Shown piece by piece: positions 4,727 through 38,169 of a DNA stretch of 64,000 bases (the stretch's first letter is position 1; each line of letters begins with the position of its first letter). The notes under the pieces were generated by a model. That model saw only the letters and a program-made list of their open reading frames with translations. It did not search any database and was not told the origin of the DNA. Source of the DNA: Macrostomum lignano (lineage: Eukaryota); assembly GCA_002269645.1 (NCBI GenBank), contig NIVC01000010.1, positions 1,488,001 to 1,552,000 of the forward strand, written 5' to 3'. A program made the position numbers and the translations under genes.

Positions 4727-5945
4727 CTATTTGTAGAATTTCAGCTGAATATTATCAATAGCTTTTGTATCAGACATGGTAGCCAGAGGGCCCCAGAGCT
4801 CACAACCGTAAGTGATAACGGGGGTAACAAGCGCGTCGAATAGTCTGCGAATGAGTGTGATGTCTAGGGACGTATTCTTTACCCTATGGAGTAGGGAAAA
4901 CATAGCTGTATATCCCTGCTTAGTTTGGTGTTCAATACAATTTTTAAAGCTGTTTTTTGGTTCAAAAATAATTCCCAGGTATTTAAATTCATTTACTTCC
5001 TCTATTTCTTGGTTGTCGTAGTACGTATATTTTTGTAGCAATGCTTTCTGTGTCGTTTTTTTGTCTGGTATTGCCCTGCATAAACTTTGTTTTGCTTGCA
5101 TTTACTTTCAAGTAATTTTGCTTGCAGTAATTTTCCATAGTCGTAAATGTGTCTTGAAGTTCGTCTTTGTTTTTAGCTAGAATGGCTTGATCGTCTGCAA
5201 AGAGTAGGATGAGTGGGAAAGCAGATCTCGTAAGAGAGCGCCTAGTGCTAGAGAGTTCAAGATATTCAACAATGTCGTCAATATATAGTTCAAAAAGGAT
5301 GGTAGAGAGAGGGGTTGCCTTGAAGAACACCTTTAGATATTGGGATTGGCTGGGTTTCATCATCATCATCATCTTTTTTTTAGAATGAAGCAGGCAATTT
5401 TTATGCATGTTCTTGATAAGTTCCGTCATTTGACCTTTAATACCCTGGTTATCCGTTTTGTGCCAAAGGGTCGGTTGATTTAAGCTATCGAAGGCTTTTT
5501 CATAGTCAACAAATCCAATAAAGAGTTCTTCTTTGTTGTAGATGGATTGGTTTATAATGTTGTAAAGATTAAAACATTGGTCAATTGTGCTGTGATTGGG
5601 CTTGAAACCGTATTGGTATTTTGATAAAAGATTGTTTGCGTATGCTAGGTTTTCGAGTCTGGATTTAATAATTTGGCAAAAGAGCTTGCCAAGAATTGGT
5701 TGAATGCAGATTCCTCTGTAATTGTTGGGGTCGGCACTGCTGCCTTTGTTTTTATAAATCGGATGAAGTGTATTTGTTATCCAACTAGTTGGGAAGGTTC
5801 CTTGTTTGAGTGCTTCGTTGAAAAGTGAGCATAGGAGGTCAGCAAGTTCGTTCTCGAGGTATTTGAGTGTTTCTACATATACTTTATCGTGCCCAGGTGC
5901 TTTGTCGGTTTTGAGCTTTTTAATATGTTTTATAACTTCTTCTTT
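4727..5945 (-). pseudogene. LINE reverse transcriptase domain (frameshifted)
   Basis: ORF 4989-5957 (KAPGHD, NYRGI, QYGF, DYEKAFDS, LLFADD, LKVNASKTK) continues in another frame as ORF 4727-5101 (EEVNEFKYLGI). Confidence 0.9.
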
Positions 5946-6079
5946 CCCGTACAACAATCCGACGTATCTGACCGACGTCGTACGACGTCTATATGTAACA
6001 TTACGTGTTTCCTATTGGTCGGACGTCGGGCTGACGTCGAAGTCGTAGTCGAAAAATTAAATTCGCCTTAATTCACGTT

Positions 6080-6234
6080 AGTAGTAGAGGATAACACAAC
6101 TCTGCCGCAGGGAAAGCCACGGAAATTCCGTGGGCCCGGATCAGAAGGGCGCCTATGTGTTTGCATGGCTCAACTCTGCCGCAGGCAAAGCCATGGGAAT
6201 TCCGTAGACTCCTAATGAGAGTACATAGGCACCT
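6080..6234 (+). repeat. Polinton left TIR
   Basis: Reverse complement of 13773-13927, with one mismatch seen. Contains two caactctgccgcagg repeats and the palindrome ccacggaaattccgtgg. Confidence 0.95.
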
Positions 6235-6383
6235 GTGTTCCATAGGGGTAGGCCCCCTAATGTGAATACATAGACGCATGTGTTTACATAGGAGATATTT
6301 GTATATAAACCAGAAAATTTGTTTTCACAAATAATAAAATTTTTGAAATTCTCGCTCCGTTACATCGTAATAACTAATTAATA

Positions 6384-7127
6384 ATGGTCGATATTGGAGA
6401 AGGCTACAAACTTCAAGTACAAGAGTATGAAGGAGTACAGTTTATTGCGATTCGGAAATTTTATCGACATGGCAGCACAGCAAGTTTAAAACCCGGCGTT
6501 CCCGGATTTAACCTCAACATCCGACAATGGGAGAAGTTGAAAGAACTGAAGCGAACTCTCGTGAAGGCGGCCCTAGGCGGGCAACAGAGGATCATCAAAC
6601 TCGGTTTTGATAAGTTTGTTGAGGTTAAGAACGGCATCATCTGGCTAAGACGGCTTCCAGAAGATTGCTGCGAAGAATTTTTGAAGCGAAACACTGTGGC
6701 CTTGGCACCAGCTCTGTGGCGAAAACTGTGGGAGCAGGCTGCATGGATCGACGAGCAGCTGTCTGCCCCACGCCAAATTTCTGATGTGTATGAGCTGGAG
6801 TCGGGATCTTCGAGCGAGAGAAACGGTGATGATGATGACAACAGCAACAAGGACGACACCATGCGGCTTGCGAAGACTGAGGATGAGGGCGTCCAATCAA
6901 GCACTCTACGCATCGACGATGAAGTGGTCACATCAACGCCTCTACCGGTGACAAGTGCTGCAGCTGGCTTTATCCCAAAGCAGGATTCGGATTTGCTGCA
7001 GGACCCAGTCTGGTATCGCTTCCGGGCTGAAGCAGCTGCGGTCGAGAACGTCAGGAAGCGCAAGCAACCATATCCGCTGCGCAGGCAGAATGCCATGAGA
7101 CTGCGCCTCAATGAGGATGAGGAGTGA
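6384..7127 (+). CDS. PC4/Sub1-like ssDNA-binding protein, probably two tandem PC4-like modules plus an acidic/basic tail
   Basis: LQVQEYEGVQFIAIRKFY...LKPGVPGFNLNIRQWEKLKE matches the PC4 pattern (V..F.G...IDIR.Y....KPG.KGISL...QW..L). A second degenerate module follows (IKLGFDKFVEV...IWLRR...TVALAPALWRKL). TATA-like tatataaa at ~6302. Confidence 0.75.
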   Translation: MVDIGEGYKLQVQEYEGVQFIAIRKFYRHGSTASLKPGVPGFNLNIRQWEKLKELKRTLVKAALGGQQRIIKLGFDKFVEVKNGIIWLRRLPEDCCEEFLKRNTVALAPALWRKLWEQAAWIDEQLSAPRQISDVYELESGSSSERNGDDDDNSNKDDTMRLAKTEDEGVQSSTLRIDDEVVTSTPLPVTSAAAGFIPKQDSDLLQDPVWYRFRAEAAAVENVRKRKQPYPLRRQNAMRLRLNEDEE

Positions 7128-7573
7128 AGAAGAAGAATAAGAAGTGCTTTGAAGAACTTTGGTGACTGGTGACATACTTAAATTGGCTCATTTAACAATT
7201 TCTATAATTAACATTGCTCATTTATCCAGAAAACTTAATTAAGTCTCTCCATTTAAGAAAATCATGCAACTTATTGTTTCTTATCCGCTAAAAAATATAA
7301 AAGCTTCTTTTCATAAAAAAATTGTTTTCCTTTGTTCTTGTGCTTAAGAAAAAATTAGACTGTTGACTTTTGTTTCTTGAGAAAATGGAAAAAAATTATT
7401 TGCTCCTGGCCAACCAGCTAGTTTTTCAATTTGCCCAACAGCTGCTGCATCAAGTTAGAGAAGAGGGTGGGCATAAAAATTGAAAGAGCATTGAACAGTG
7501 GCTCAATGAGCAAACCGCGAAAAGAACTTAAAAAAAATTGTTTTGCAGGCTTTCATTCAGCTTGATTTTGATA

Positions 7574-8644
7574 ATGGAAAAGATCTACTACAACCCTGCT
7601 CAGCCTGCCAGTTTCTCGGGTGTCTCAAAGCTTCTGCACGAGCTCAAGAAAACACAGGATAATCGTGAATCTAAAAAGAGCATCGGACAATGGCTGACTG
7701 AGCAGCCTGTGTACACACTGCACAAGCAAGCTAGGAGACGCTATCCTATGGCACCAATCATTGTTAGGGCTATTGATGATCAGTGGGAACTTGACCTGGT
7801 TGAGATGATACCATTTGCAAAATACAATAACGGCTACAAGTATATTCTCACATGTATAGATGTCCTCTCTAAATCTGGTTGGGCCAGGCCTCTAAAAAAC
7901 AAATCAGCTGCGGAAGTCAAGTTCGCATTCGAGAGTATCCTGAGGTGCTCAAAGCGCCAGCCACGCACAGTCCGCACGGATCAAGGAAAAGAGTTCATCA
8001 ATACCAATTTTCGGGAGCTCTGTATAAGCAAGGGAATTTTGGCATTCCCCACTAATAGTGAGCAAAAAGCAGCCATCATAGAGAGGTGGAATAGAACTTT
8101 GAAAAACAAAATGTGGCGATATTTCACCCACAAGAGCACTTTGCATTGGGTTGATGTGTTGCCAAAGCTGGTCAAGTCGTACAACAACACTTACCACAGA
8201 AGCATCAAAATGGCACCGACTAGCGTATGCAAAGAGAATGAGACTGAGGTCTGGATGAACCTTTACAATGGAAGAGCCATTGAGACTGTAAATAAGCCAA
8301 AGAAGCCCAAATTCAGTGAAAAGCAGTCAGTGAGAATTTCCAATGCACCCAGGCTATTCCACAAAGGATACAAGGCCAACTGGAGTGAGGAGGTGTACAC
8401 TGTAGTATGTAGGGCACCGAAGCACTATCCGTACATGTACAAGATTAGGGACATAAAGGGTGAGGAGATCCGGGGTCTCTTTCATGAGCATGAGCTGCAG
8501 GCGGTGCCGGACTCACAGCGACTGTATGTGATTGAGAAGATTCTGAAAACGGAGAAGAGGAAGGGAAAAATTCGCTATCTGGTGAAGTGGGCCGGCTACG
8601 ACTCGACAGGCTGGGTGGATGAAAAAGACTTAAGAAAGGTTTAG
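7574..8644 (+). CDS. Polinton retroviral-type (DDE) integrase with C-terminal chromodomain
   Basis: WELDLVEM...ILTCIDVLSK...RTDQGKEF...IIERWNRTLK (D, D and E intact); tail YVIEKIL...YLVKWAGYD..WV is a chromodomain. First Met at 7574. Confidence 0.95.
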   Translation: MEKIYYNPAQPASFSGVSKLLHELKKTQDNRESKKSIGQWLTEQPVYTLHKQARRRYPMAPIIVRAIDDQWELDLVEMIPFAKYNNGYKYILTCIDVLSKSGWARPLKNKSAAEVKFAFESILRCSKRQPRTVRTDQGKEFINTNFRELCISKGILAFPTNSEQKAAIIERWNRTLKNKMWRYFTHKSTLHWVDVLPKLVKSYNNTYHRSIKMAPTSVCKENETEVWMNLYNGRAIETVNKPKKPKFSEKQSVRISNAPRLFHKGYKANWSEEVYTVVCRAPKHYPYMYKIRDIKGEEIRGLFHEHELQAVPDSQRLYVIEKILKTEKRKGKIRYLVKWAGYDSTGWVDEKDLRKV

Positions 8645-8663
8645 CTTTTGCGCATCTCTTCTC

Positions 8664-9491
8664 ATGAGGTTTAACATTATAATGCGAACTATTTTGATTA
8701 ACAGTGAGCATGCTGAAGGTACTCCTAGTGACTTTAATTTTTACTTGCCTTCACCTATTTACTTGGATCGAAATGTGGACTATGAGGCAGGTCTGGCTGA
8801 AATCCATCTGCCTGCTGCATGGTTCAATGTTGACGAGCCTTACTGCTTCACTGTCTCAGATGGAAGAGAGCATGAGGCCCTGGTTCTTCAACCCGGACGC
8901 TTTGCTAGAGTGGAGGAGCTGGTGGAGCGTTTGAATCAGCTGCTGGCCAACTCTGATTCGCTATTCTTTGATGCAATGAGTGACAGGGAGTCTGAGATGG
9001 AGGCTGATGAGTCCGGCCTGATGGGGCGTAGTGGCAACAGGGAATTCGGTATGAAGTTCGAAATCCGCAACTCACGAACTGTGGTGCACAACAACACTGC
9101 GAGAGCAGAGATGTTTCTCCCATCCAGCAAAATTCTGCATTGGCTGGGATTTGGAAACCAGGCTGTGAAAATCCAGCCAGGGAGCCGCGTGTCCGAGCAC
9201 TGCATTGGCTGCCCGCGCACCAGCTTAATCAATGTGCACTGCAGTATCGTTGAGTCAACTAATTGCAACTTGGGCTCCCTGTTGAGAACAGTTGGAATGA
9301 AAGCCGGCATTGAATGGGGCAACTATCAAACAAAAATATTTAAGAAAACAATATTCTTCCCGATTCAACGAATCAGTCTTCTTCACAGCATTCGAGTTCA
9401 GCTGCGTGACATCTATGGTTGCCCACTGATTGCCCAGACACTCAGCCCTGTTCTGCTCACAGTTCAGATTCGGGAGAAACGCATTCAATGA
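8664..9491 (+). CDS. Polinton minor capsid protein (PX/penton-like)
   Basis: SDFNFYLPSPIYLD...YEAGLAEIHLP..WFNV N-terminus and INVHCSIVE...LLRTV...FPIQ...IRVQLRDIYG C-terminus are typical of Polinton PX; the position between integrase and MCP also fits. Confidence 0.8.
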   Translation: MRFNIIMRTILINSEHAEGTPSDFNFYLPSPIYLDRNVDYEAGLAEIHLPAAWFNVDEPYCFTVSDGREHEALVLQPGRFARVEELVERLNQLLANSDSLFFDAMSDRESEMEADESGLMGRSGNREFGMKFEIRNSRTVVHNNTARAEMFLPSSKILHWLGFGNQAVKIQPGSRVSEHCIGCPRTSLINVHCSIVESTNCNLGSLLRTVGMKAGIEWGNYQTKIFKKTIFFPIQRISLLHSIRVQLRDIYGCPLIAQTLSPVLLTVQIREKRIQ

Positions 9492-9877
9492 ACTACCAGC
9501 AGCTGATCCAGCAATATTCGGGGGTGAGGACAGGACACGAAAAGCCTGCACTCTATGGCTGTGGGAGCTTTCCGGGGATCATGACATACCAGCCTCCGCC
9601 AGCGGCTACATCATCATTCTCAACGCATAGCAATGTCAGGCGCAAAAGAAATACTGAAGCAAGTCCGAAACGATTGAAGAAGAAGAAGTACACCCGAAAG
9701 GCAACTGGTAGAGATCGCACCAATAAGAGGTGCAATGAAAGAAATCCGAGCAAGGCTAGTAGGAAAAAGCTTAAGAATAGGAAGACGAAAGCAAAGAAGA
9801 ATGCAGCAGGCGGAGGAAAGCGAAAGCGAAAAGTCAGCAAGAAAACTGTGAAACGCGTGCTCGACTCTCTGTCATAG
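9488..9877 (+). CDS. Small K/R-rich protein, candidate virion core/DNA-condensing protein
   Basis: The ATG at 9488 overlaps the penton stop (ATGA). 129 aa, with N-terminal MNYQQLIQQY...LYGCG and a highly basic C-terminal two-thirds; ends 2 nt before the MCP ATG. Confidence 0.65.
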   Translation: MNYQQLIQQYSGVRTGHEKPALYGCGSFPGIMTYQPPPAATSSFSTHSNVRRKRNTEASPKRLKKKKYTRKATGRDRTNKRCNERNPSKASRKKLKNRKTKAKKNAAGGGKRKRKVSKKTVKRVLDSLS

Positions 9878-9879
9878 AC

Positions 9880-10689
9880 ATGGCTTACGGATTCAATCCC
9901 AGACTTGATTTATTTAAGACGCCTGTTCTACAAACCTGCATTGAAAAAGCTACTTATGTTGATATTCACCCAGTAAATTCCATTACTGCAAACTCCCCCA
10001 TTGAATTTGACTGCCACCAATCTGCCGATGAATACACTGATTTGCTTAATTCTTTTCTTTATATTCGCTGCCGCCTTGTGAGACTGGATGGGGGTTTGCT
10101 GAGGGAGGATGTTCGAGATGGAGATGGCATCATCACCGAGCGCAGAGACAGTGACGTGCACCCAGAAAACTTTGTTTTGTCTACAGCCTTCTCAGATGTA
10201 ATTGTGAGCATTAACCAGCGAGTGGTATCTGGTGGAGACCAGCTCTATCCCTACCATGCGTACTTCAAAGCACTAATGAGCTCATCTGATGCCCAGCAAC
10301 TAAAACTTTACCCTGCTGGCTTCCTGGAGCCGAACTCGGCAGCTGAAAAGCACACGGAGAGCCACAGGGAATCCCGATGGATGGAGTATGCGGGACCGCT
10401 CTTCAGCGATGTTTTCCAATGCCCAGTGTTTCTGCTAAACAATCTGCACTTGCACATCAAACTGGTGCCCAGCGATGGGGCCTTTGCCATCAGAAGCCCG
10501 AATGCAAACAACGCGGCATACCGCATGGAAATCTCTCACTGCATTTTGCATCTTCGCCGAGTCAAAGTGGTGCCCCACATCAGCCTGGCCCACGAGCAGG
10601 GGTTGACAAACCAAAATGCACTGTATCCCATCGAGCGAACTGAAATGCAGAACTTCATCCTACCCCAGGGCAGAAGCAGTCAACATTGA
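9880..10689 (+). pseudogene. Polinton major capsid protein (PY, double jelly-roll), C-terminal half deleted
   Basis: LDLFKTPVLQT.IE...HPVNSI...PIEF......EYTDL..S.LY...LYPYHAYFKAL...D.F....FLLNN..L.I.L is the Polinton PY signature. The ORF stops at FILPQG, about where PY proteins normally continue into the second jelly roll. Confidence 0.88.
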
Positions 10690-10699
10690 CTGCTTCTGC

Positions 10700-10914
10700 T
10701 GCCTGCACCCGAATCATGCGCACGTTTAGCTTAATTTGTGCTCTTAGCGAACAGTTGTCAAAGGAGTCAAGACGAACTTCGAGATACTGCAGAACCGCAT
10801 GTTTGACCAGGTCTAGAAACTCGAATGGATCAATGTCAGCTGTTGGGGCGAAGCGATGAATCTGCAGTACATCATCGTGGGCACTGTTCACCAAGGAGAT
10901 AACACATGAAGACC
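10700..10914 (-). pseudogene. Probable N-terminal remnant of Polinton protein-primed PolB ORF
   Basis: QIHRFAPTADIDPFEFLDLVKHAVLQYL...RAQIKLNVRMIR resembles the DP..FL....V.......K..L motif upstream of Polinton pPolB. It is convergent to MCP and is preceded by the acceptor ttttattttag. Confidence 0.5.
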
Positions 10915-11084
10915 CTAAAAATAAAATCGAGAGATAAGATAGTGAAAATCGAGAAACATAAACTGAGAGTCTCATGATTGCTTATAAATCCAGCTCAATT
11001 AGCTATTCATAATAATCGATGTCTGTATTCAGAATCGAGGAGGGTGTTTTTGGATGTATACAATCGATATAGGTGTGCAGAGGT

Positions 11085-11285
11085 GTGCGAAGTCGAGGTG
11101 GGGTGTCCAGAGTCGAGGTGTGGTGTCCAGAGTCGAGGTGGGGTGTCCGGAGTCGAAGAAGGGATGTGCAGAGTCGAGGAGGGGGTGTGCGGAGTCGAGG
11201 AGGGGGTGTGCGGAGTCGAGGAGGGGGTGTGAAGAGTCGAGGAGGGGGTGTGCAGAGTCGAGGACGGGGATGTGCAGAGTCAGGG
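11085..11285. repeat. G-rich 21-bp minisatellite (gagtcgaggagggggtgtgcg)
   Basis: About 9-10 degenerate tandem copies are directly visible. Confidence 0.9.
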
Positions 11286-12248
11286 TTGGTGTACGGACTC
11301 GGGTGGGCGGGTGTTATTACGCATTAATTAAAACTGAATTAGTTACACATTTCGAGTTGAAGGTTTAAAATTTTTCCACTTCAAATATTGGTAAGAAAAT
11401 AATTGATTTTTTACATTAACAGAGTGGCAAAACTCACCTGCTCCTTCACCTGCTCTTCGCCTAGAACATGTTGTAGGATCCTGCATGTTGCGACTGCCGG
11501 CTGCCAGGCAATGCTGATGCAGATTTGTCTGCTTCCAGCTTCGAATTGATCAATTTTAAGGCCAATGGCAATGCTTAGCTTAAAAAGGAATAATTAAGAA
11601 AAATGCAAAGTAGAGATCGAATCTAGTTAAGATGCTCTTATTCTATTCGCGATATTGAGACTTAGCAACGAGCACCAAGCTATAGAAAAGCAGCCCGCGG
11701 ATAGTAAAAACCTCAAAATCAAAACTAATAGTCGAGTAATGCGAATAGGTTGCCATGATGCGATAGCTTTTAGCATCAAATCCACCGATACGAGTTGATT
11801 TGCTATTTTACTGTCTAGTTTGCGTTTTTTTCTTGAAATAATTCAATGTTTATTATGAGAAAAAAACAATGCAAAAACAACGTGTATTTGGTATAAACGG
11901 CTTTGTAGCAAGAAAATAATTTAGAAGAAGAAACTTTTATTTAGCATTAAATTACAAACTTTCTGCATAGAAAGCAGTATAATTCATTATAAGCTACCAT
12001 GTACATTCTTGCTCTCCTAATAACTAAATATTGGTATCAAAGAGCCTCCAGCTTGATAAACTGCTTAGCCCAGCCCAACGAGATAAATCACAGGTAACAT
12101 GCACTGAAAAGATTAATTTAATTTAAGCAGTTTTTAACTTCTTTTAGAGCTCCTCCCCTTATCAAAAGTCCACTCATTTTTGTAGAACTTTTTTTGCGTG
12201 CTAAAAATTCGTTTCCCTTGCCAACAAAATACTCCAGGCTAAAGCAAA

Positions 12249-13232
12249 TTAAGAGTTACTCAAGCGAATACGGATCCCCCCTCCAAAGTCAATTGAGTAC
12301 TCGCCCACAACGCTACTCGGTAGGACGAATTGAAGGCAAACTGACGGTGCAGCCATCGGTTCAGCGGCTTGGACTCCTGCTGATTGTTGAACCACCGGTG
12401 GGGTAGCATGAGGTTCGACTCCTGCTGATTGTGGAAACTCTGGTACCACCGGTGGGGTAGCATGAGGTTCGAAATCTCGTAGGAGATCAGACAGGCTGGC
12501 ATCCGCCATCATTCCAGCCATATTTTTTCCAGCGACTGGAACAGCCCTGTGCGGTGGCTGCTGCTCGACCGTGGCTTTTTCGTTCGTCTCCTCCGGCTCC
12601 AACTCGTGCTCCTCAAAGAAAGCCGTGTCCAATTCTGGCGGAGCAACAAAATCAGCGGCAGCAGCATCATCGTCATGGCGATTTACCGGTGTCTGAAGAC
12701 TGAGAGCACCAGCCGCTGGAACGTCAACGCTGGCAGCTTGATGGTCGATGCCAGCAGGTCCAGGAGCAGCAGCTGGATGGTCGACGCTGGCAGGTCCAGG
12801 AAGGCTGGCAACATCAGCTGGATGCTGATCTGCAGCAGCAAGTGCAACGGAAATCAAATCAAAAGTACATGTAGTTGAAATTATTGCAGATTGATTTCGC
12901 ACACCTTGAATCGTCTGGCTCAGGGTGCTGACCGGGGCTCGATGACGCTCGATCATGTTGAGTTGCTCCTGGCGGTGGGCGGCCTCCAGTACAGTAAAGC
13001 GGGCTCGTTCGATGCTATCAGGCGAGCTCCAATTAATGATGGTGTGATTTTTATGGGCCCGAACTTGGCGGCGCACATTGAACAGCTCAGTTGTCTGGCA
13101 CTCGTGGCAAAGCAACCAGCGACTTATAATGCAGCTGTCTTTTTTGTTATGGAGCTTTAACCCACCGAGCTCACATGAATTGCAGCTGATGCACACCTCG
13201 TGCACGTAGGATGGACACCGAGATTTATTCAT
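12249..13232 (-). CDS. Polinton accessory ORF: Cys/His-rich N-terminus, low-complexity Ala/Pro/Glu C-terminus
   Basis: 327-aa ATG-started ORF next to the right TIR; C..HEVCISCNSC...LLCHEC...HKNH; internal duplication EPHATPPVV x2. Confidence 0.65.
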   Translation of the reverse strand: MNKSRCPSYVHEVCISCNSCELGGLKLHNKKDSCIISRWLLCHECQTTELFNVRRQVRAHKNHTIINWSSPDSIERARFTVLEAAHRQEQLNMIERHRAPVSTLSQTIQGVRNQSAIISTTCTFDLISVALAAADQHPADVASLPGPASVDHPAAAPGPAGIDHQAASVDVPAAGALSLQTPVNRHDDDAAAADFVAPPELDTAFFEEHELEPEETNEKATVEQQPPHRAVPVAGKNMAGMMADASLSDLLRDFEPHATPPVVPEFPQSAGVEPHATPPVVQQSAGVQAAEPMAAPSVCLQFVLPSSVVGEYSIDFGGGIRIRLSNS

Positions 13233-13772
13233 TATTTAAAAATCTATGAGAAATTTAGTTTAAAATAAAATTTAAATTTAAACTTCTCATATGCACATAT
13301 TTAGCCTCTTATATACCCACTTCAACCAAATCTGTGTTAATAAAAACATAGCCGCTATGTTTTCAGCTTTGCTATGTTTACAGTCAGCCACCCAATGTCC
13401 AATGATTTCATCAGCGCATCCAGGTATTGAGCCCTTGTTAAATTCCCGCACGCCCCGCTAAATTCTTTTGAATACGCCGCCAACTTTACCCCACCCAGTC
13501 GAGGGTGGCAATAAAACTACTGATAACTGAGCACTCTCTCCTTTCAGCAACAAAGCCGCCGCCGCCGCCAGCTCCCAGACAGCGGGAGAGAGAGAGGCTT
13601 GGCTACCACTATTTTTGTTTACAGAAGTTTGTTATTACCGATAAAATTATATAATAAAGTATTAGTATAATACTGAATACAATAAAATACCGCTGATATT
13701 TGCCAATCGTTCAACACAATTTCTAGAGATTCCCCTAGCTCGCCTCTGTGCATACTTGCGGATTCCCCCATG

Positions 13773-13927
13773 AGGTGCCTATGTACTCTCATTAGGAGTC
13801 TACGGAATTCCCATGGCTTTGCCTGCGGCAGAGTTGAGCTATGCAAACACATAGGCGCCCTTCTGATCCGGGCCCACGGAATTTCCGTGGCTTTCCCTGC
13901 GGCAGAGTTGTGTTATCCTCTACTACT
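13773..13927 (-). repeat. Polinton right TIR
   Basis: Reverse complement of 6080-6234. Confidence 0.95.
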
Positions 13928-14142
13928 CACGTTATTCGTCTTAAATAATTAAATTAAGCATAACAGTATTGCTTGCCAGTTCATCCCGCGAAAATAAATG
14001 TTAAAGCAGCGCGAAATAAATTTTTGGACTACGACTTCGACGTCGGCCCGACGTCCGACCAATAGGAAACACGTAATGTTACATAGACGTCGTACGACGT
14101 CGGTTCAGAGGTCGGTGCGACGTCGGATTGTTGTACGGGTTT

Positions 14143-15134
14143 GGTGAATGGGGCATTGAAAACCTCTAAATCAGCCAGAATAGGGTTGTCAAGGTGAAGA
14201 TTGTATGATAGTCTAATGCTGCTGTCTTGTTCAGTTACAAGATTTTGAAAGTGTATGACGAATTTTTCATCAATTGTTACTCTGTTGTTTGAGGGATTTG
14301 GTGTTTTTAATAAGTTCCAAACTTGAATAAAGGCCTGGTTGATCATGTTGTCTGCCCAGAGAGTTGTTTCAAATTTCCATGAAGTGAGCTTTTTTCGTAT
14401 GCTTTTTTGAGTTGTACTTTGCTTGAGAGGTTGTTGGGAGTAGGGAAGGTTTTATATCTTCTGCAGGCATGTCTAGCAGCGTTTCTTAAATCTTTAAGGA
14501 AGCGAGGCAGTGTTGAGCATAGTGGGTTCTTTATCTCTACTGTGATGTTGTTTTGAATTTGTCTAACTTTTCTACTTAATTCATTTATAAAAGCTGGGTT
14601 TTGTATGTCTAGATTTGTGATTTTGTCATTCATGTTTTTCAGGTCATTTGCGAAGTTATTGATATGTTTTTCTTGTTGCAGGTTGGGTTTGTGTGACTTT
14701 TTTAGGACTCTGTATCTCGTTTTCGAGTTATTGGTTGCTTGTTTAGTTTCTGTGATTTCCTCTGTGAATTCACTTGATAAGGAGAGCACTATTTGGTTGT
14801 GGTCGCTAAAGTAGGTGTGGTTCTTTACTTTAAAGTCTTCGAGGTGTTGGAGTAAGCTGGTAGAGACGAAACAGAGATCTATAACAGAGGAACCAGATTT
14901 TGAGAGAAAGGTGAATTCACCATTTGTGTCTGATAATGATCTACCATTGATTAGATGCAGGTTGTATGAGTCAGTAATCTGGTTAAGTAGTCTACCATTT
15001 TTGCAGGTTTTCTTGTCTTGGCTTTGTCTAGTAAGTGAGATGTTTTTTGCTCTGGTGGTATATATTGAGTTTAAATCTATGTAGGAGGTATTGTTTATAT
15101 GAGCATTGAAGTCTCCAATAAGGAAGATATTAGC
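14143..15134 (-). pseudogene. LINE APE endonuclease C-terminal half and linker
   Basis: Manual translation: IFLIGDFNAH...NGRLL...LINGR...GEFTF...GSSVIDLCFVS...FSDHNQIVL; continues through ORFs 14343-14789 and 14029-14346. Confidence 0.85.
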
Positions 15135-15236
15135 TGTTCATTGCCTTTTTGGCTGTTCAAATCGGTGCTGGTCTTTTCGATTTAAACAAAACTCGATCGA
15201 GACGCGGGGTTGCAAAATAAATGGGAGCTGCGGCTT

Positions 15237-16009: not shown

Positions 16010-19000
16010 ATGTCCAATTTAGACGATCTTATCGGTGCTTTGACAGCGAGAATCCAGGAGCAGTTAAACGTGGGTCAGTGCGTTCCCCGTCAAAATAAGT
16101 AGCTCGTATGTTCCGACTCAAGATCTTGCTTTGTGGTTGCAACAATTTACCACGTACTGCGAGGCTGCTCAGAACCCCGAGGATCAGCGGAAGCAGAACT
16201 TGCTGAGTCTGTTGGATTTTGGCTGGCTTTTAAAGCAGCGCGGCCAATCTTGAGCTGGATGATGACTTGGGATACGCAGAATTTGTGGAGTAGCTGGAGG
16301 CTCGCTTCAGCCAGAATCGCACACCCTAGCACTATAAGACAGAGTTTCAGAACCGAAGTCAGAGAGATGGAGAAGCGCTAGAGGACTACACTGACGCTCT
16401 CAGGGAGCTCATGCGTAGGGCTTATCCGGCTTTGCCAGCATGGAGCAGAGGGACGAATTAGCAAAAGACCGATTCTTGAAGGGGATCCGAGTGCCGGACA
16501 GGGTGCTTGAGAATGTCTTGCTGCACGACCCTGACACGCTGCAGGCCGTGATCTAGCAAGTGCGCCAGACTCTCGCATCGATGAAGCTGCTGGAGGGAAA
16601 GCGGTGAGTTCACGTGATGAACAGTCAGACGGCAGCTGCTGCAGCGGACAGTCAGACAGCTCGCATGGCTGCAGAGATCGCCAGCTTGAAGGCAGAGCTC
16701 GCGCAGCTGAAGCAAGGAGGGGCGTCGGCCTCGGCGGTGCAGCCGAATCCGCAGCAGCCGAGCCGCGCCTCAGGCGGGCAGAACCTGTGGAAGGTGCCTT
16801 CAGATGGGGCACTCGAGGCCGGACTGTAGGAAGCGGGTAGTTTGCCTTGCCTGCGGCCAGCAGGGCCACACTCGTTCCAGGTGCCAGAGTCACCAGGCTG
16901 CTCAAAATCAGGGAAACGGGATGGGGGCCCGGCCAGGCAAGCGTCCCGGGCCCCGTCTGCAGTGATTGAGGAAGCGCCAGGGCCCTCAACCCAGATCCAG
17001 GGCGTGCTTGGTGGAACCGGGCTGGGTTATATTGACGCGAAGTTTGAATATGGGCCCTTGGTTGCTTGCTTGCTGGACAGCGGGTCCACAGTGTCATTAC
17101 TTAGTAGTCATTTCCTAGAATCTGCCAAAATTAAGAACCAAATTATACATTGTAGTACTGATTTTTCAATTTACACAGCAAGTGGCGAGGCAATTCAAAT
17201 TTTAGGCCGAAATAATCAAAATTTTTCGAATGATGAGACGAAATTCGAGCACAAATTTTTAGTAGTCGATGAAATTTCACAGTCATGCATTTTGGGAACC
17301 GATTTTTTCATTAGACATTGCATGGCAATTGATTTCGCTAGACACTGCCTGCAGACGGAATCTTGTGTCTTTCCTTTCCATTTCTGTGCTGACAGACCTC
17401 TTGTGTGTCGAATCGTGCTGCGCCAGGCTATCCGGATGGATGTCGGTGAGGAGAAGCTGGTCCCAGTCTGCCTTCAGAGACGCGGGGTGAGGGGATTTTA
17501 GTTTCCTGGAATGGTGGAGTCCGAGCGTCGGGCAGCAGGTGATCATTTGCTGGCCAGATCGGTGCAGTTGCCTGATCAAGAGGGTCAGTTGTCTGTCAGG
17601 ATGCTGAACACATCGGAATGCAGTTTGTCGATGCGGCGGGGTACGCGAGTTGGCTGGTTTTCGCCGGTCTCTGCGCAGCAGCAAGCAGAGCTGCAGCTGA
17701 ATGCCATTCAGTCAGAAGGACAGCTGTGGAATCCCCTCAGCGAAGTCAAAGAGTGGGGTGCATGTGGCCTATCAGACGCAGAGGCAAGAGAGTTTGTATC
17801 CCTGTTTGCCAAAAATCGTGACGTCTTTGCCAAAGACAGCTCTGAACTCGGGCTCACGAATCTGATGGCGCACGAAATCGACATGGGTAATGCGAAGCCC
17901 GTGGCTGAACCCTTGAGCAGAATCTCGCCGCACTGGAGAAGTGAGGTTGATAAACAGGCTGATAAACTGCTGGCTGAAGCTAGGCCCCATCTATCCATGT
18001 CAGTCACCCTGGTCGAGCCCAGTGGTTCCGGTTAGAAAGTCGGATGGCAGTCTCAAAATGTGTCTGGATTACAGGCGCCTGAACAGCGTGACCGTGCCTG
18101 ATCCTCTGCCCCCGCCCAGAATGGATGAGACTCTTGATGCGCTCGGGGAAACTGCATCTTTTCCACGATGGACCTGGCATCCGGGTACCATCAGTGCCCA
18201 CTGGAGTCGAAAGACCAGTTAAAGACCGCTTTCGTGGTGCCGAATCGGGGACAGTTTGTGTGGAAGTGCATGAGTTTCGGGCTCAAAAATGCCCCGTCAA
18301 CTTTTACGAGACTCATGTCCATGGCACTGTCAGAAGTCAACTGGAAGGAATGCCTCGTCTACTTCGACGACATAGTTGTCTTCACCACGACTGTGCAGCA
18401 GAACTTCGAGCGAGCGCCTTGAGCATGTGTTCCAATGTCTCAGAAGAGCCAACATCAAGCTGGCCAGCAAAATGTGTCTTTCTGGCCAAAAAGATTAGCT
18501 TCTTAGGTCACGTGATCTCCAAGGATGGAATAGCGACGAACCCAGAAAAGTGTGCCGAAATCCAGGACTGGCCCAGGCCTTGCAGTGTGGCCAAAGTCCA
18601 ATCATTTGGGACTGTGCGTCTACTACAAAGCTTTCATTCCAAATTTTTCCGAGATTACCGCTCCGCTCTACAGACTTGTAGCGAACGATGCCGAGTTCAA
18701 ATGGAGTCCAGCCCAAGAGCAGTCGTTCAACAGTCTGAAAGCGGCTCTGTGTTCGCCAAGCGTTATGGCTTTTCCAGACTTCTCGCCAAACGCTGGTGAG
18801 TTTATTCTTGACACGGATGCCAGCTCTCGAATTGGGCTTGGTGCGCGGTGCTGTCGCAGCGCCAGTCGGACGGGTCTGCGAAGGTAATAGCCTATGGATC
18901 TCGAATGATCCAGGCAAGCGAGAAAAACTACTGCACCACCCGTCTCGAGCTGTTGGCAATTGTGCACTTTATCAAAAAGTACCGGTACTATCTACTCGGG

Positions 19001-20815
19001 AAAAAATTCACTGTGAGATCTGATCACAAAGCCCTGCAGTGGCTCGCAAGCATCCGTGATGTTGAGGGTCAATGTGCTCGATGGCTGGAGACACTGCAGA
19101 ACTATTACTTTGTTATAGAACACCGGGCCGGGAAAGATCACGGCAACGCAGACTCTTTGTCTCGGAAATACCGAAGGCACACAGGGCATGAGACTTGTCC
19201 CAGTTGCGCATCGGCTCAGCGCAGCAATGGTGTCAATGCGATATTTCGGAGTGTGCTACAGAAGGAAGATATACAGTCAGCTCAAGAAGCAGAGCCAAAG
19301 CTGAAGATCATCAATAATTTCTTGACAGATCATGTCGACGGGTCAACTCCACCGCAGGTGATTTGCTGGGAGGAGAGGTGTCTGTGGTCTCAGCGTCAGC
19401 TGATCAGGCTTGAAGCGCAGGTTCTGGTTTTTGAAGGCCCTGGGTCTGAGGTTCCGAAAATTATCTTGCCGCCGAGCTTGTTTTAGAAGGTCTTCAGTGA
19501 GCTGCATGACGGAGTCACAGGTGGTCACCTAGGGATCGAAAAGACCCTGAGAAGGTGGAGGCTAGATTTTGGTGGCCTGGAATTTCAAGAAAGATCGAGG
19601 AGTACTGTAGGAGCTGTGTGCATTGTGCCCGGTCAAAACCAGGCCAGGCCAATCGAGCTCCGCTGCACCCGATTGTGTCAGAAGCTCCGTTTCAGTGAAT
19701 AATGTGCGAAATCGTCGGACCATTGCCGCGATCTAGGAATGGGTCCAGATTCATTTTGACCATTCAGGACTCGTTCACTAAGAGGCCAGTTGCCGTGGCG
19801 CTTTCAAACCAGCGTGCGAGCACGGTGGCAAAGGCCATCTTCGACAATTGGATAGCGCAGTTTGGTTGCCCCGAATTCCTTGTGACGGACAAAGGCACCA
19901 ACTTTGAGTCACTGCTGGTAAAGCAGCTGTGTCAGCTGATGGCTGTTAAAAAGTGCCGAACAACGGCCTATCATCCCATCGCCGATGGCCAGGCAGAAAG
20001 CTATAACAAAACGCAAAAAAATATTATAAAATGCCGGCAGAGTGAGGCTGAGAGTGATTGGGAGGAGCTGATCGCTGCATCACTTCTCGCCTACCGCAGT
20101 AGTGTCCATCGTGGCACTGGGTACACTCCGTACTACATGTTGTACGCAAAAGAAATGCGCCTTCCAGTCGATATTGGGAACCTGCTGGAAGCAGTACCGG
20201 CTGATGCACCGGAGTACCTGTTGTCTCTGGGGCACAGGCTCGCGGAGGCACATTCACATGTAAAGCAAAATCTGCAACATTATCAGTGGAAACAGAAAAT
20301 CATATACGACTCAAGAGTTCGAGGTCCGAACATAGAGGTAGGAGATACAGTACTCGAATATTCACAGGCCCTGCAGCCGAACGAAGCGGAAAAATTTAAC
20401 AATTATTGGAAGGGCCCAGTCGAGGTGATAGAGAGGCTGTCGGACATTAACTTCAGAATTCGCCATCGGAACAGTAGGGAAGACAGAGTGGTGCACTATA
20501 ACAACCTTCGCAAAGTGCCTCAACGTCCCGTTGAGCTGCAGACTCCAAGACTGCAGCCAAAGCAAAAGCGCAGTAAACAGAAGGGGCAACGTGAATTTGT
20601 TGTCGTTGGCGAAGAGCCGCAAGAGTCGGAGGTCGGAGCCCGACTTGGATGGCGATGACTCACAGTTTGTCTATGTGCCAGCGGCGGTGCATCAAGATAT
20701 CCAAGCGCCGCAGGACCAACCGGTTCACGCTGCAGCACCTCCGGCTTCGCCACGCAGGCTTCGGCCTAGGAGAAACAATCCGCCTGCTCGCTACGGCGAC
20801 CCAGTACTGTACTAG
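16010..20815 (+). pseudogene. Gypsy/Ty3 gag-pol, multiply frameshifted
   Basis: gag WLQQFTTYC and a degenerate zinc knuckle; protease LLDSGSTVS; RT DLASGYHQ, FGLKNAP, YFDDIVV; RNase H DTDAS, DHKAL, NADSLSR; integrase H..GGHLG/C..C, TDKGTNF, ADGQAESYN. Domain order is PR-RT-RH-IN. Confidence 0.93.
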
Positions 20816-26150: not shown

Positions 26151-26240
26151 CTTACGAATAACCAACCATTGTAACTATAGCCAGCATCGACCTCACTCAC
26201 TATATTTCTCCTCAAACTATAAGCTTTAACCTGCTAAGCT

Positions 26241-29200
26241 ATGACTTGCAATTTGTTTAAGATCAAGTACCTGCTACTGTTAGCAATTATTTCCAGTCTA
26301 GTTTTCACCTGGCAATTACGTTTGTTTCTTCCATCAAGAAAGTTAAAAATGGAATCACCTAAAACTATTTGTGAGAACTGTAGCAACGACACCTCTTCAC
26401 ACCCGAAGATGATAAACAAGCTGGATGTACAGCTGCCCACAGTGTGCCAGGATCTCGACTGCAAGGCTGCCTACCTCAAGCACCTGCCGCTGGCCAGCAG
26501 TTCGCATCGGACAGATGGCCATCCCATTCCTCCTATTCGACACCTGCTATGGATAAATGAATCTGTGTCCGCCTATTTCGCTGAGCAACTGAAAACCTGG
26601 CGTCGGGTGCACCCGGACTGGACTGTTGTGCTTTGGCGTGACCAAGACCTGGATCCTTTTGTGAAGAAGCATTTTCCCGAAGCTCTGCCGCGTTTCATGG
26701 AATTGGCGTCGCATACAATCATGCAGGTGGACATGGTCAGGTACATGCTGCTGTTCAAGGTATGGATAAACTCTTGACTAAAATTAGACATTATATGAGC
26801 ATTGCTACTTTTCTCAAGGTTAATACGATAGTTAGGTATAGTAGAAAATGAAAGTTTTAAGAATTTTTCAAGATGTAATACTGTATAGTGTGATCCAAAA
26901 GCCACATGTAAAATTAGACCCTTTTCGGTTGGCGCTAAAGCAGTTACGCAATAATTCATTAACACGCATTGTGATAACGAAATGCCGAACAGTTTAACAA
27001 ATAACTTTAATATTTTAGCAATACTAATCCGGGATAGTAGAGGTCGATAGTGGAATCTCGCGATTGATATTCGAGATTTAGACTTTTTTCTTGATCGAAT
27101 CTCAATTTAATAAAGTGCCGAGATTCCGAGAATCCGAGATAAAAAATAAAGTAAAGTAAAGAGCCTTAACTTGAAATACCAATCTTCTGAATATACGAGC
27201 ATAGGATCACCTAGGCCTCAATATAAACACATTGAATTCAACATGAATCGAATCAGTGCCAAAAAATCAACTCACTATAGTGTCACCCGTATTGAAAGGG
27301 ATTTAGCCGCGTTTCGATCTATCCGTGTTTATAAAAATGATGCACCCGAAAGTTTCCGTTCTGTTACGAATTAAAAGTTGGAATTTTTAACAAAACTTTG
27401 TTCAAAATTCAAATATTTAAAAAAGTTGTACAAAAAGAACTGCTATTTTTAGTTTTTAACTTTGTCTTTTTTGAATTTTTTTAGATATCTCGAAATCTCG
27501 ATTCCGTATCCTATCCCGTATCCTATCGTCAAAAATATCGAATGTCAAATATCTCGAAAATTGAATATCGCCCAACCCCTACTGGATGGTATTTAAGAAA
27601 CTGATGGGTTCGGCCTTTTTAAGCCTATAGCTTCGGGTCTCAGAACTCAGAAACGAATCACTTAGAACTCTGGCCTCTCACTCCTGTCAGATGGTCAGCC
27701 CCATGGTAGCGAGCAGCAAGGTCCTATAGCTAAGAGAAGACAGCGAGAGACAAGCAGGGAGAATTTGAAAGGTAGAAATTAGCTAACCCGCGGGTCAACT
27801 AACTCGCTGCCACCAGTCCGTGCGCCCCGGCTCACCAAACCGGAGCTATCGAAATCGGACTTCCGACTAGAGGGGCACTGCACTTACCTGCCATCTAGTG
27901 TCTTTTAGCTGTCTAAATCTCGAAGTCATAGCCGAATGGAAGGGACGCTGCTGGGACTAAGATCGCATTGGCCATGCAGGGACAGAGAGGACTTCTGCAG
28001 GGGGTTCTTGCGCTGGCGAGCCCCTATCTAAATATACTAAATTCCCAGAAGTACATGTATAAGTACACGTAACAGCACGCTTTCGGCACTAAATGTGTTA
28101 ACACGCCGACAGATAGCGATGATGTAGATGTATTGTTACCTTTGGAGACCTTCAGACTAATATTCATCTCGTTTTAACCGCTCAGCTGCCTGAGACCCGC
28201 GCGAAAGCGCCAGTCCGGCACTTAATTCGCATGCTTAACATAATGATTTCTTAGATCGACTCATTGACTGGGAACTGCGCCGCTTCCGGTCCACCGTGAC
28301 CTCTGCCTCTAGATTTAGCCGCTCATCTCAGCTGGCATTGCGAAAAAGAAAGAAAACGCTAAGTCTTTAACTTCCAGATTCAACTTTCTCACTTAATCCG
28401 CAATCCTAAACACCTTAGATCGAGTCAGAGCAAATGGCTACTTTTAATATTAACTGACACTTCTGCCTCGCGATTGGCACAAAAAAACAAGTAAGCAAAA
28501 GTGCAAATCCTATCAGACTACCTAGGAAGGGGTCAGACAAAGGGTGCACCCAGTTAAGCAGGTCAAGAAAGCCTCTCACCAAACCAATCAGAGGACCTAT
28601 CTGCCGGTGGCCAAGGAATCCACAGAGACCGAAGCGTTCAGATGGGATGCTGTTGCCGGTCTTGACTGACGATTGCCGCCGCTGCTCTTCGCTTGCCGAA
28701 AGTCGTTGCTGCTCTTAGATCACTGCCGGGAGATATTGATGATGCTTCTCAGGGGGACCTTAGCTGTTAAAGCCGAAACTGCCGGGGAAAGGGGGATCAG
28801 GCAGGACCAGAAGAGGACGTCCCGGAGCAGGGCAAACTCCACTCCTCCAACAGCGCTAAAAGCGGAAAAACACCGGCCTTTTCGAGCGCGGGTCGAGTTG
28901 CCGCCTTTTATAGCTCTCACGCGGCCGATTTGTTATAACGCACGCCGAATTTTCCGATTGGCTGAGAGCTTTTGTTAAAATAGGCGCCGAATTTTCTGAT
29001 TGGCTGAGCCGGAGGCAGTCAGGTCGACTCTGATTGGCTGGGCTCAAGACCCCAAAACCCACCCCACCAGGTGGCCTTCGGACCCCCGGGGGAGTTGACA
29101 GGTGCAGTCATAAATCATGAACAAAACGCAATAAAAGCCCCTTGTCTAGACATTCTGGCGCCAAAAGTGACAGCAAAACGCATATAAATCAAAGGAGAAA

Positions 29201-31469: not shown

Positions 31470-31892
31470 TCGCTTCAACAAGATTTGAACTACTTGGCAG
31501 ATGCTAATGAACAGGTAGACGCTGTGAAAGTGAAAAGTAACTAATTTGACACCAGCCCAGATCGAAGCAATATGCATATGTTTCAGTTTTGCAATTACTC
31601 TCTACCCCCACCTGTAATTATAAAGCAATATAAGCATGCCAGTGTGAGCTTTTGTGCAAAACTGGGCACCTGACAAAATCAAACTGTCGGAGAATTTTTT
31701 ATACATTAAACATTTTATCTGTTTTTTTTTATAAAAAAAGTACACACTAGACTGTGGAGGCTAATAATACTACGTAATAGTACGTAATAAAATTAATGAT
31801 AATAATAATATTTTAACACATAACTGCTGCGGGCCCCTTGAAAAATCAGCTTGAACTTGAGCTTGAGCAATTCTGTCCATTCCTCTGACTCC

Positions 31893-31893
31893 C

Positions 31894-31962
<69 letters not shown>

Positions 31963-31993
31963 TAGTGTCTGTCTTAGTGTCTGTCTGTCTGTG

Positions 31994-32058
<65 letters not shown>
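31893..32058. repeat. (TCTG)n microsatellite
   Basis: Directly visible. Confidence 0.98.
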
Positions 32059-32064
<6 letters not shown>

Positions 32065-32495
32065 TTGTCGAACTTTTTTTCAGTCTCACTACGCAGTATT
32101 TCCTTGGTTTCTTTCAGTGAGGTGGATCTGGATGTAGCTTTAACATTGCCTGGGCTTAGGAATCTGTAAAAAGGCAAGTAGGATTTTGGGAGAAAAAGCA
32201 AATCTCCTCTCTGTCTAGTCTAGGATTGAGTTTTATTGGCTGCTGCAACTCCACGGCAGACGTGGAACCCGATTTCCCTCACGGCTTAAATGTACGCGCA
32301 TAGCCCGACGATTCCGCCAACCAACTGGGGAAGCAAAGGGGAGGCAGCCAGTGCATGATTTTTTAGCCTATGGCGCTATAGATATACGCTTGTATGTACT
32401 CAGCTCAAGTTGAAAACTAAGCAATCATTCTCATGCTAAAATACAAACATTCAAGTCGAAATTTTTCTTAATAGCAAGCGTTCTGTCTACAGACG

Positions 32496-37167: not shown

Positions 37168-37309
37168 CTTGCTGCAGATTGCAGAAGTGTCAGACTATTG
37201 GAAATGGTTTAGAGCCGTAACCAAATCCATATACTAATTTGGCGCTGTTTGTCTGTCTGTAATTCATTTTTTCGAGAACCGTCTGAACGATTTTTTTAAT
37301 TAACTTTTA

Positions 37310-37510
37310 ATTTGAATTTGAATGCCCCCATGAAGGGCTTTTTGCGCTAGTCTATATACTAATTTTTAGATTGCGAACCATTCTGACTTGAATTGGAAAA
37401 TGATGCCCCCATGAGGGGCTTAGTGCGCTAGTCTATATACTACTTTTTAGATTGCAAACCATTCTGACTTGAATTGGAAAATGATGCCCCCATGAGGGGC
37501 TTAGTGTGCT
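37310..37510. repeat. 81-bp tandem repeat, ~2.3 copies
   Basis: atgcccccatga at 37322, 37403 and 37484. Confidence 0.85.
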
Positions 37511-38169
37511 TGTGTATCTAAAGAGTCTTTTGTGACTCTGTATGGAACTTCAATCTTTTCTCTCTTTGGGCATCAATTATTTGTTGCTCCATCTCTCATT
37601 AAATTTTTTTCGTTTTTACGAACTAATTTTATCTGAAACAAACAAGCAAACTTAACTTTAATTTATTTAAATATTTGATGCACTATAACTGGATATTCAA
37701 TATTGCATGTTGACTAACGTAAATGCAAGGCTGTAACTAAAATGACCGAATCTATAGTTACTTTTATAGCCGCTTACATGGCACATAATATCTACTTATT
37801 CTACGTGGCACTGCATTGAAGAAAGCAATATAAAGCCCTAAGCCGCTCTATCTGTATTGATTGTCAGCTTTAGCAACAGCTGCAAAAATGCCATTGCAAG
37901 CAGTAAACAGTTCTTATATAAGCCGCTTGGTTAAATTTAGCTTTGGATAGCATAGCCAAATGACTGTACACTACTGCATTGCACTTGCAATGGCTAATAT
38001 TGTAATTAATTTTTCTGGTCCATGAGTCAGTGCAGGGTCTCCGTTGCAATCATTCAATCCATAAGCCCTGAGTACAATAGCGTCGTGTATATAAACTTCA
38101 TTGGGAGCGGCTCTGCATTGGCAACCAGCTAGTTTGCTTCGCTGCCGTCGCGCGTTGCAAAACTACAGT

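What the first reader, a model, noticed from the sequence alone, without database searches (positions are those of the whole stretch)
6080..13927. Young, defective Polinton/adintovirus genome that kept integrase and capsid genes but lost the replication and packaging genes
The TIRs differ at only one position seen, the TSD is exact, and the PC4, integrase, penton, core and accessory ORFs are open. Yet there is no recognisable pPolB catalytic region, FtsK-like ATPase, adenain protease or second jelly roll (seen in sequence). Complete Polintons are usually about twice this size and carry those genes (established). The 7.85-kb unit retains both origins and a working integrase, so it could be a helper-dependent, defective-interfering-like endogenous virus mobilised in trans (inference).
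Basis: partly seen in the sequence, partly recalled or inferred. Interest (0 to 1): 0.75.

Follow-up and report, generated by a model that had tools for sequence, protein, structure and literature searches.

The report
Internally deleted copy of young Polinton
A virus-like DNA element (a Polinton) in an animal genome has intact ends but lacks most of its polymerase gene and the end of its capsid gene, likely from one recent DNA-repair event, and because copies without this break are present in the same species it is likely an ordinary broken copy rather than a spreading parasite of the virus.

Summary
The element has 155-bp TIRs with one mismatch, (AGT)2 ends and an exact 6-bp TSD. PC4, integrase, penton-like, basic core and accessory ORFs are open. 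The double jelly-roll capsid gene stops after 269 of about 427 codons. The pPolB gene keeps only a spliced leader and about 78 further codons. No ATPase or protease was found.

One break at 10670-10680 explains the capsid and polymerase losses. It carries a 14-bp fold-back, the longest hairpin in the window, which resembles a snap-back end-joining scar.

In 4 of 4 public runs laid, contigs matching from 10680 run on into sequence absent here (up to 3.64 kb), at depth no lower than the retained parts. So undeleted copies exist, and the deleted form shows no sign of having outgrown them. Whether this junction occurs at other loci could not be counted: there is no genome, only contigs.

Verdict: most likely a single decayed copy of a young, probably transcribed Polinton family. 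The defective-interfering reading is unsupported but not excluded (about 0.12). Interest 0.27.

The parts
6074..6079 (+). left copy of 6-bp target-site duplication (CACGTT)
6080..6234 (+). left TIR, 155 bp, (AGT)2 terminus, two internal 35-nt sub-repeats (6097-6131, 6171-6205)
6384..7127 (+). PC4-domain ORF, 247 aa (predicted ssDNA-binding/coactivator)
   Evidence: PF02229 E 4.8e-7
7382..7520 (+). decayed duplicate of the integrase 5' end; also in the parent-type contig of X2; right edge approximate
   Evidence: score 128; maximum of 200 shuffles 98; record 25
7574..8644 (+). rve integrase with C-terminal chromodomain, 356 aa, DDE-type motifs present
8664..9491 (+). predicted penton / minor capsid protein, 275 aa
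   Evidence: features only; position before core and MCP
9488..9877 (+). basic, predicted core protein, 129 aa, 29% K+R
   Evidence: a small basic ORF also precedes the MCP in L003
9880..10689 (+). [quoted passage not shown]
10670..10699 (.). deletion junction: perfect 14-bp stem, 2-nt loop; 10671-10679 is an inverted copy of sequence just right of the break
10680..10914 (-). second exon of the pPolB gene: about 78 codons of the N-terminal (predicted terminal-protein) region, cut by the deletion
10915..11437 (-). 523-nt GT-AG intron of the pPolB gene, holding a 21-bp tandem array (11082-11281, 9.6 copies)
   Evidence: joint in X1 only
11438..11486 (-). predicted 49-nt leader exon of pPolB (ATG, phase 1, in frame with exon 2)
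   Evidence: phase arithmetic
12249..13232 (-). accessory ORF, 327 aa, with CxxC pairs and an LxCxE-type motif (Oncoid-like by position and motifs); in-frame 75-nt intron 12830-12904 spliced in X1 and X17
13773..13927 (-). right TIR
13928..13933 (+). right copy of the TSD
5946..6073 (.). left part of the 340-bp MITE-like target (CCC...GGG ends, TTT duplication)
13934..14139 (.). right part of the MITE-like target; the MITE itself sits in a broken minus-strand LINE

Best explanation
This is an integrated Polinton copy with intact ends that lacks one internal block (the capsid gene's 3' third and most of the polymerase gene, and likely the protease and ATPase genes), likely removed at this locus by a single host end-joining repair soon after insertion and likely not amplified since. 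A full-length element is inferred to have been inserted by its integrase into a MITE within a LINE, leaving the 6-bp TSD. A double-strand break was then resected. The polymerase-side end likely folded back on a 4-bp hairpin, copied about 10 nt of its own flank and annealed to the capsid-side end (snap-back synthesis-dependent end joining). The copy cannot replicate or build a capsid by itself. Its cis ends would allow rescue by a full-length sibling, but nothing shows that this happened. Shown: anatomy, truncations, hairpin, contigs that run on across both break points. Inferred: order of events, repair pathway, single locus, former place of ATPase and protease.
For: (1) Both truncations meet within 10 nt: capsid-side contigs diverge after 10670 in 4 of 4 runs, and polymerase-side contigs match from 10680 in 4 of 4 runs (tables 7 and 8). 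(2) Polymerase-side records carry 3644 (X1), 3630 (X2), 197 (X10) and 616 (X17) letters that are not in the window, and differ by 0, 0, 0 and 1 letters over the shared part. Two full-length pPolB relatives imply 3.2-3.5 kb of missing gene, which fits. (3) No excess of retained over deleted DNA: X2 109 vs 104, 106, 104, 108, 118; X1 61 vs 39, 45, 37, 35; X17 7.6 vs 5.2-8.1; X10 1460 vs 921-1205 (that record is mostly retained sequence). (4) The 14-bp stem is the longest in the 64-kb window; the maximum in 60 order-1 Markov copies of the element was 11. PMC5728401 (passages) describes snap-back repair products in which the insert becomes part of a longer inverted repeat. (5) Young: one TIR mismatch; 3 substitutions and 4 gap letters in 4718 nt against 6 of the 8 listed X2 records (the 2 dropped lie in the capsid module and look like a sister family). 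(6) A different internal deletion (13008-13271, depth 183) is seen in X10, so sporadic deletions occur in this family. (7) In a distant relative an adenain gene follows the MCP directly (L003; PF00770 E 2e-7). (8) 96% of 3,511 vertebrate Maverick loci are degraded (PMC8097293, passages).
Against: No genome was available and all four runs are contigs, which drop rare variants. The tool warns that depth is no copy number. Only 32 of 1521 pieces and 24 of 192 loose ends were shown, so I cannot say whether any record bridges the junction, how many loci carry it, or whether this locus is present in these runs. A full-length allele at this same site was not seen or tested. The retained ORFs are open, as a rescued element would also show; the young age explains this equally well. 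Fold-back junctions could also arise during viral replication (recalled). PolB-less Polintons that appear to have stayed mobile are reported in butterflies.
Confidence: 0.65

Rival explanations
1. The deletion arose in a free, replicating genome, by template switching or end joining. The shortened genome was then integrated once with integrase and polymerase supplied in trans, so it was helper-dependent for one round but did not spread.
For: Both ends and the TSD are perfect. The copy is about 99.85% identical to parent-type contigs, so insertion and deletion are close in time. Spliced contigs in two runs suggest that the family is transcribed.
Against: The scar fits ordinary chromosomal repair. 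A second, unrelated deletion exists in the family. Nothing here tells the order of the two events.
Confidence: 0.15
2. It is one member of a small non-autonomous, defective-interfering-like subfamily that is repeatedly copied and integrated by full-length helpers.
For: The cis ends are intact, and a near-identical undeleted form is present in 4 of 4 runs. PolB-less Polintons with signs of continued mobility are reported in bioRxiv 10.1101/2025.02.07.637071 (passages).
Against: The main contig passes unbroken through the break point in all four runs, and retained DNA is not in excess over deleted DNA. A junction carried by many copies would be expected to split those contigs (inference from how graph assemblers work; recalled). 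No second copy lies in the window.
Confidence: 0.12
3. The junction is an assembly or chimeric-read artefact and the locus holds a full-length element.
For: No listed record bridges 10670-10680 (the tables are cut), and the family is multi-copy with a more abundant sister family over 8660-10670.
Against: A repeat collapse needs a shared repeat at both break points, and would not be expected to add a 9-nt inverted copy of the flank and then resume in another gene (inference). Ends and flanks are coherent.
Confidence: 0.08

Closest known systems
Polinton/Maverick proviruses of animals (adintoviruses; family given as Eupolintoviridae in PMC12166617), PMC8502044 and PMC8097293
   Same: TIRs with (AGT)2 ends, 6-bp TSD, rve integrase, penton-core-MCP module, pPolB on the opposite strand, an LxCxE/CxxC accessory gene upstream of pPolB.
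   Different: This copy lacks the catalytic pPolB, the second jelly roll, the protease and the ATPase. TIRs are short (155 bp). The pPolB gene has a spliced leader, whereas intact vertebrate Mavericks are reported to be intronless. The integrase lies next to a PC4 gene.
Macrostomum lignano Polinton-type gene models (UniRef; P0014-P0018, P0023, P0028, P0047)
   Same: 51-56% identity to the retained pPolB piece. The same accessory region lies upstream (32% over 277 columns to P0015; 49% over the zinc-finger part of P0023), and both carry the LxCxE-type motif.
   Different: They belong to another family, far more diverged than the parent-type contigs. They go on into OTU-like, EndoVII and polymerase regions that this copy lacks.
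PolB-less Polintons of Pieris mannii and other insects (bioRxiv 10.1101/2025.02.07.637071)
   Same: TIR-flanked Polintons without polB beside complete siblings.
   Different: There, several similar copies point to continued mobility and TE cargo is present. Here only one copy is known, there is no cargo, and the MCP is broken too.
Snap-back SD-MMEJ repair junctions (PMC5728401)
   Same: A short insert at a deletion junction forms a longer inverted repeat with the flank.
   Different: Those were I-SceI breaks in Drosophila with mostly small deletions. Here the deletion is of several kb, and the pathway is inferred from sequence only.

Membership tests
Polinton/Maverick (adintovirus), as derivative | terminal inverted repeats with (AGT)2 or (AG)3 end motif | tested here: met
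   155 bp, 1 mismatch, AGTAGT ends; motif as in PMC8097293
Polinton/Maverick (adintovirus), as derivative | 6-bp target-site duplication | tested here: met
   exact CACGTT; empty-site joint in 4 of 4 runs
Polinton/Maverick (adintovirus), as derivative | retrovirus-like (rve) integrase | tested here: met
   PF00665 E 2.1e-12, above cut-off
Polinton/Maverick (adintovirus), as derivative | jelly-roll major capsid gene | tested here: met
   Faustovirus MCP Z 9.8 (rmsd 8.0, 179 aligned), mavirus MCP Z 9.0 (rmsd 4.1, 168 aligned); truncated after the first jelly roll
Polinton/Maverick (adintovirus), as derivative | single jelly-roll penton gene | tested here: inconclusive
   feature score 0.97 to viral clusters incl. 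Sputnik V18/19 at 26% of members; no fold was predicted
Autonomous Polinton | complete protein-primed PolB | tested here: not met
   only about 94 N-terminal codons remain
Autonomous Polinton | complete double jelly-roll MCP | tested here: not met
   153-163 aa missing against 9 of 9 aligned relatives
Autonomous Polinton | FtsK/A32-type packaging ATPase | tested here: not met
   no Walker A motif in six frames, no Pfam hit in 81 frames
Autonomous Polinton | adenain-type protease | tested here: not met
   no Peptidase_C5 hit in 81 frames; the same library finds it in L003
Non-autonomous / defective-interfering subfamily | cis-acting ends retained | tested here: met
Non-autonomous / defective-interfering subfamily | an undeleted relative in the same species | tested here: met
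   contigs run on across both break points in 4 of 4 runs; whether their ORFs are intact was not visible
Non-autonomous / defective-interfering subfamily | same deletion junction at several loci with different TSDs | not testable with these tools
   no genome; contigs only, tables cut
Non-autonomous / defective-interfering subfamily | amplification relative to the helper | tested here: inconclusive
   no excess of retained over deleted DNA in 4 runs, which points against it, but contig depth is a weak measure
Non-autonomous / defective-interfering subfamily | interference with helper replication | not testable with these tools
   needs experiment
Alpha versus Beta adintovirus | class of the pPolB catalytic core | not tested
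   the core is deleted in this copy

The most novel reading that the evidence does not exclude
A helper-dependent Polinton subfamily in an animal germline: a 7.85-kb genome with both origins and an integrase, copied and re-integrated by near-identical, transcribed full-length siblings, and possibly damping them through a single-jelly-roll capsid fragment. This would be a defective-interfering endogenous DNA virus in a species with many public data sets.
Probability: 0.12. Interest if true: 0.6.

Novelty: new member of a known kind. Interest (0 to 1): 0.27.

Why it matters
As a single broken copy it matters little, since most animal Polinton loci are defective. Two side points have some value. 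First, it marks a very young, probably transcribed Polinton family (spliced contigs in two studies) in a species with runs from at least 8 studies. Maverick particles were reported as never observed (PMC8097293 abstract, 2021), so this family is a place to look for natural particles or free genomes. Second, the junction is a clean snap-back scar, and the pPolB gene has a spliced leader. If the junction proved multi-locus, it would show trans-complementation of a Polinton lacking both its polymerase and a whole capsid gene. My one search for 'polinton' + 'defective interfering' + 'helper' listed one unrelated paper; related cases are already reported for polB-less insect Polintons.

Tried and rejected
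- IMG/VR scans with the MCP alignment and with the integrase found no relative. The metagenome scan gave 4 short, distant loci (29-31%); I read only L003.
- A word-based search with the 77-aa pPolB piece found nothing among 70 candidates. The HMMER search found 9 hits: 5 real, 4 repeat-rich chance hits (P0019-P0022).
- No RNA holder is on record; X1 and X17 are only guessed to be RNA. This blank is not used as evidence.
- Earlier scan findings: three look-ups, nothing shown.
- I first noted that four M. lignano gene models end after the ExoII motif and wondered about a second truncated family. P0047 runs on to the polymerase C-terminus with skipped parts, so a gene-model artefact is more likely; dropped.
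- My recollection that the C. briggsae msft-1 element is a non-autonomous Maverick was wrong: the preprint places it in a MULE.
- Kapitonov and Jurka 2006 is not held. That it lists non-autonomous Polinton families is recalled only.
- 'polinton' + 'macrostomum' gave one unrelated paper.
- The depth peak over 8660-10670 is not amplification of this copy. Those records differ by about 1-4% and have other flanks at 8710 and 10670, i.e. a sister family.
- No complex prediction was run, because no binding claim is made.
Full report
1. Observation. The element spans 6080-13927 (7848 bp). Its TIRs are 155 bp with one mismatch, begin with AGTAGT and are flanked by an exact 6-bp duplication. It sits in a 340-bp MITE-like element, which sits in a broken minus-strand LINE. 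The joint 6072-13927 (empty target) is present in 4 of 4 runs; these may be other copies of the MITE. Open ORFs on the plus strand are PC4, rve integrase with chromodomain, a penton-like ORF (features only), a basic 129-aa ORF and the capsid ORF. Pfam found no polymerase, ATPase or protease in 81 of 81 frames of 45 aa or more, and motif scans were empty for Walker A and PolB motifs.

2. The two broken genes. The capsid ORF matches 13 proteins. Against the 9 that I aligned (419-432 aa) it lacks the last 153-163 residues. The model (mean pLDDT 61, 10 sequences) shows one jelly roll, a linker helix and a single further strand. It matches viral capsid proteins (best Z 9.8, rmsd 8.0, 179 aligned) and a bracovirus-associated protein by Foldseek (E 7e-10). 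On the minus strand, 10682-10912 encodes a piece 51-56% identical to Macrostomum lignano gene models. These models continue into EndoVII-bearing regions homologous to full-length pPolBs P0048 (PF03175) and P0049. By position this is the N-terminal region, which PMC11161782 (passages) assigns to the terminal protein. A joint in X1 defines a 523-nt GT-AG intron, and a 49-nt exon with an ATG upstream is in phase with it. So the polymerase gene keeps its start and loses about 3.2-3.5 kb. The accessory ORF upstream has CxxC pairs and an LxCxE-type motif, also present in P0023. This fits the 'Oncoid' genes of PMC8502044 (parts 1-2 of 6 read). The host is probably a macrostomid flatworm; this is inferred from these relatives and was not tested.

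3. The junction. Capsid-side contigs leave the window after 10670 and polymerase-side contigs join it at 10680, in 4 of 4 runs. The nine letters between are an inverted copy of the sequence just right of the break. The result is a perfect 14-bp stem with a 2-nt loop, the longest in the window; the maximum in 60 Markov copies of the element was 11. PMC5728401 (passages) describes this pattern for snap-back synthesis-dependent end joining. A host repair origin is therefore likely, though fold-back during viral replication (recalled) is not excluded. The deleted block is at least 3.64 kb on the polymerase side, plus probably 0.47 kb of capsid gene. In the distant relative L003 an adenain gene follows the capsid gene directly, so the protease probably lay in the gap. 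The ATPase's former position is unknown. The parent would be about 12-13.5 kb (estimate).

4. Is the deleted form spreading? Twenty listed runs from 8 studies, all of organism A, hold the stretch or part of it. I laid 4 runs from 4 studies; one may be the window's source. In each, a record identical or nearly so from 10680 onward continues into sequence that the window lacks (3644, 3630, 197 and 616 letters). If deleted copies were numerous, retained DNA should be deeper than deleted DNA. It is not: X2 104-118 vs 109, X1 35-45 vs 61, X17 5.2-8.1 vs 7.6, X10 921-1205 vs 1460 (this last record is mostly retained sequence). X10 also shows another internal deletion (13008-13271) at depth 183. Against over-reading: contigs drop rare variants, the tool states that depth is no copy number, and only 32 of 1521 pieces and 24 of 192 loose ends were displayed. 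I cannot say whether any record bridges the junction. The data argue against strong amplification but cannot separate one locus from a few.

5. Age and activity. The copy differs from 6 of the 8 listed X2 records by 3 substitutions and 4 gap letters in 4718 nt. The other 2 records lie in the capsid module, where a more abundant sister family overlays the signal. Spliced joints appear only in the two runs guessed to be RNA (10913-11437 in X1; 12829-12905 in X1 and X17), which suggests that the family is transcribed. It does not show that this copy is.

6. Mechanism. Most likely: insertion of a full-length element, then one end-joining deletion at the locus, with no later spread (0.65). Rivals: deletion before a single helper-assisted insertion (0.15); an amplifying non-autonomous subfamily (0.12); an artefact (0.08).

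7. Comparison. It descends from a Polinton/adintovirus by ends, TSD, integrase and capsid module. It fails the test for an autonomous member on four features and is filed only as a deletion derivative. Defective copies are the rule: 96% of 3,511 vertebrate loci (PMC8097293, passages). Partial Polintons occur in C. elegans (PMC11414722, passages). PolB-less Polintons with signs of mobility are reported in insects (10.1101/2025.02.07.637071, passages; its supplements were not seen and may hold closer cases). Typical sizes are 15-25 kb (PMC6431247, passages). PMC3014272 (passages) found no non-autonomous copies in anole. PMC12166617 and 10.1101/2022.07.12.499685 (passages) added little. Searches for this family or for a defective-interfering Polinton (listings only) showed no description, but the library lacks most subscription papers and Repbase.

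8. Verdict. A real, well-formed but probably ordinary broken copy of an apparently undescribed young family: new member of a known kind, interest 0.27. The bold reading (a helper-dependent, interfering subfamily) keeps about 0.12 and would deserve 0.6.

Noticed in passing
window 8660-10670: A more abundant sister family shares only the penton-core-MCP module at about 96-99% identity in the listed records and has other flanks and differently arranged TIR sub-repeats; this may be capsid-module exchange between families.
   Followed up: partly
window 10915-11486 and 12830-12904, minus strand: The pPolB gene has a spliced 16-codon leader with a 21-bp tandem array in the intron, and the accessory ORF has an in-frame 75-nt intron; intact vertebrate Mavericks are reported to be intronless.
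   Followed up: partly
window 7382-7520: Decayed duplicate of the integrase 5' end just upstream of the integrase gene, also present in the parent-type contig.
   Followed up: partly
window 4727-15137: Three-level nesting: LINE (RT 4989-6011, endonuclease 14343-15137, minus strand), then a 340-bp MITE-like element with a TTT duplication, then the Polinton.
   Followed up: partly
window 13008-13271 and 13394-13875: Other joints in single runs (X10 depth 183; X2 depth 90) point to further deleted copies or to sister-family ends.
   Followed up: no
window 49437-54219: Apparently intact copia-type LTR retrotransposon: 293-bp LTRs 99.7% alike and a 1343-aa open frame.
   Followed up: no
window 16830-20658: Frameshifted gypsy-type retrotransposon (protease, RT, RNase H, integrase pieces; read from the translations).
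   Followed up: no
window 26200-41100: Tandem cluster of about three related two-exon genes that look like DXD glycosyltransferases (label recalled, not tested), with a 24-bp-unit repeat at 30245-30916.
   Followed up: no
window 44500-48920: Exons that look like a carboxypeptidase Q-type peptidase (label recalled, not tested).
   Followed up: no
window 56200-64000: Long strand-skewed stretch, probably a satellite array, running to the window end.
   Followed up: no
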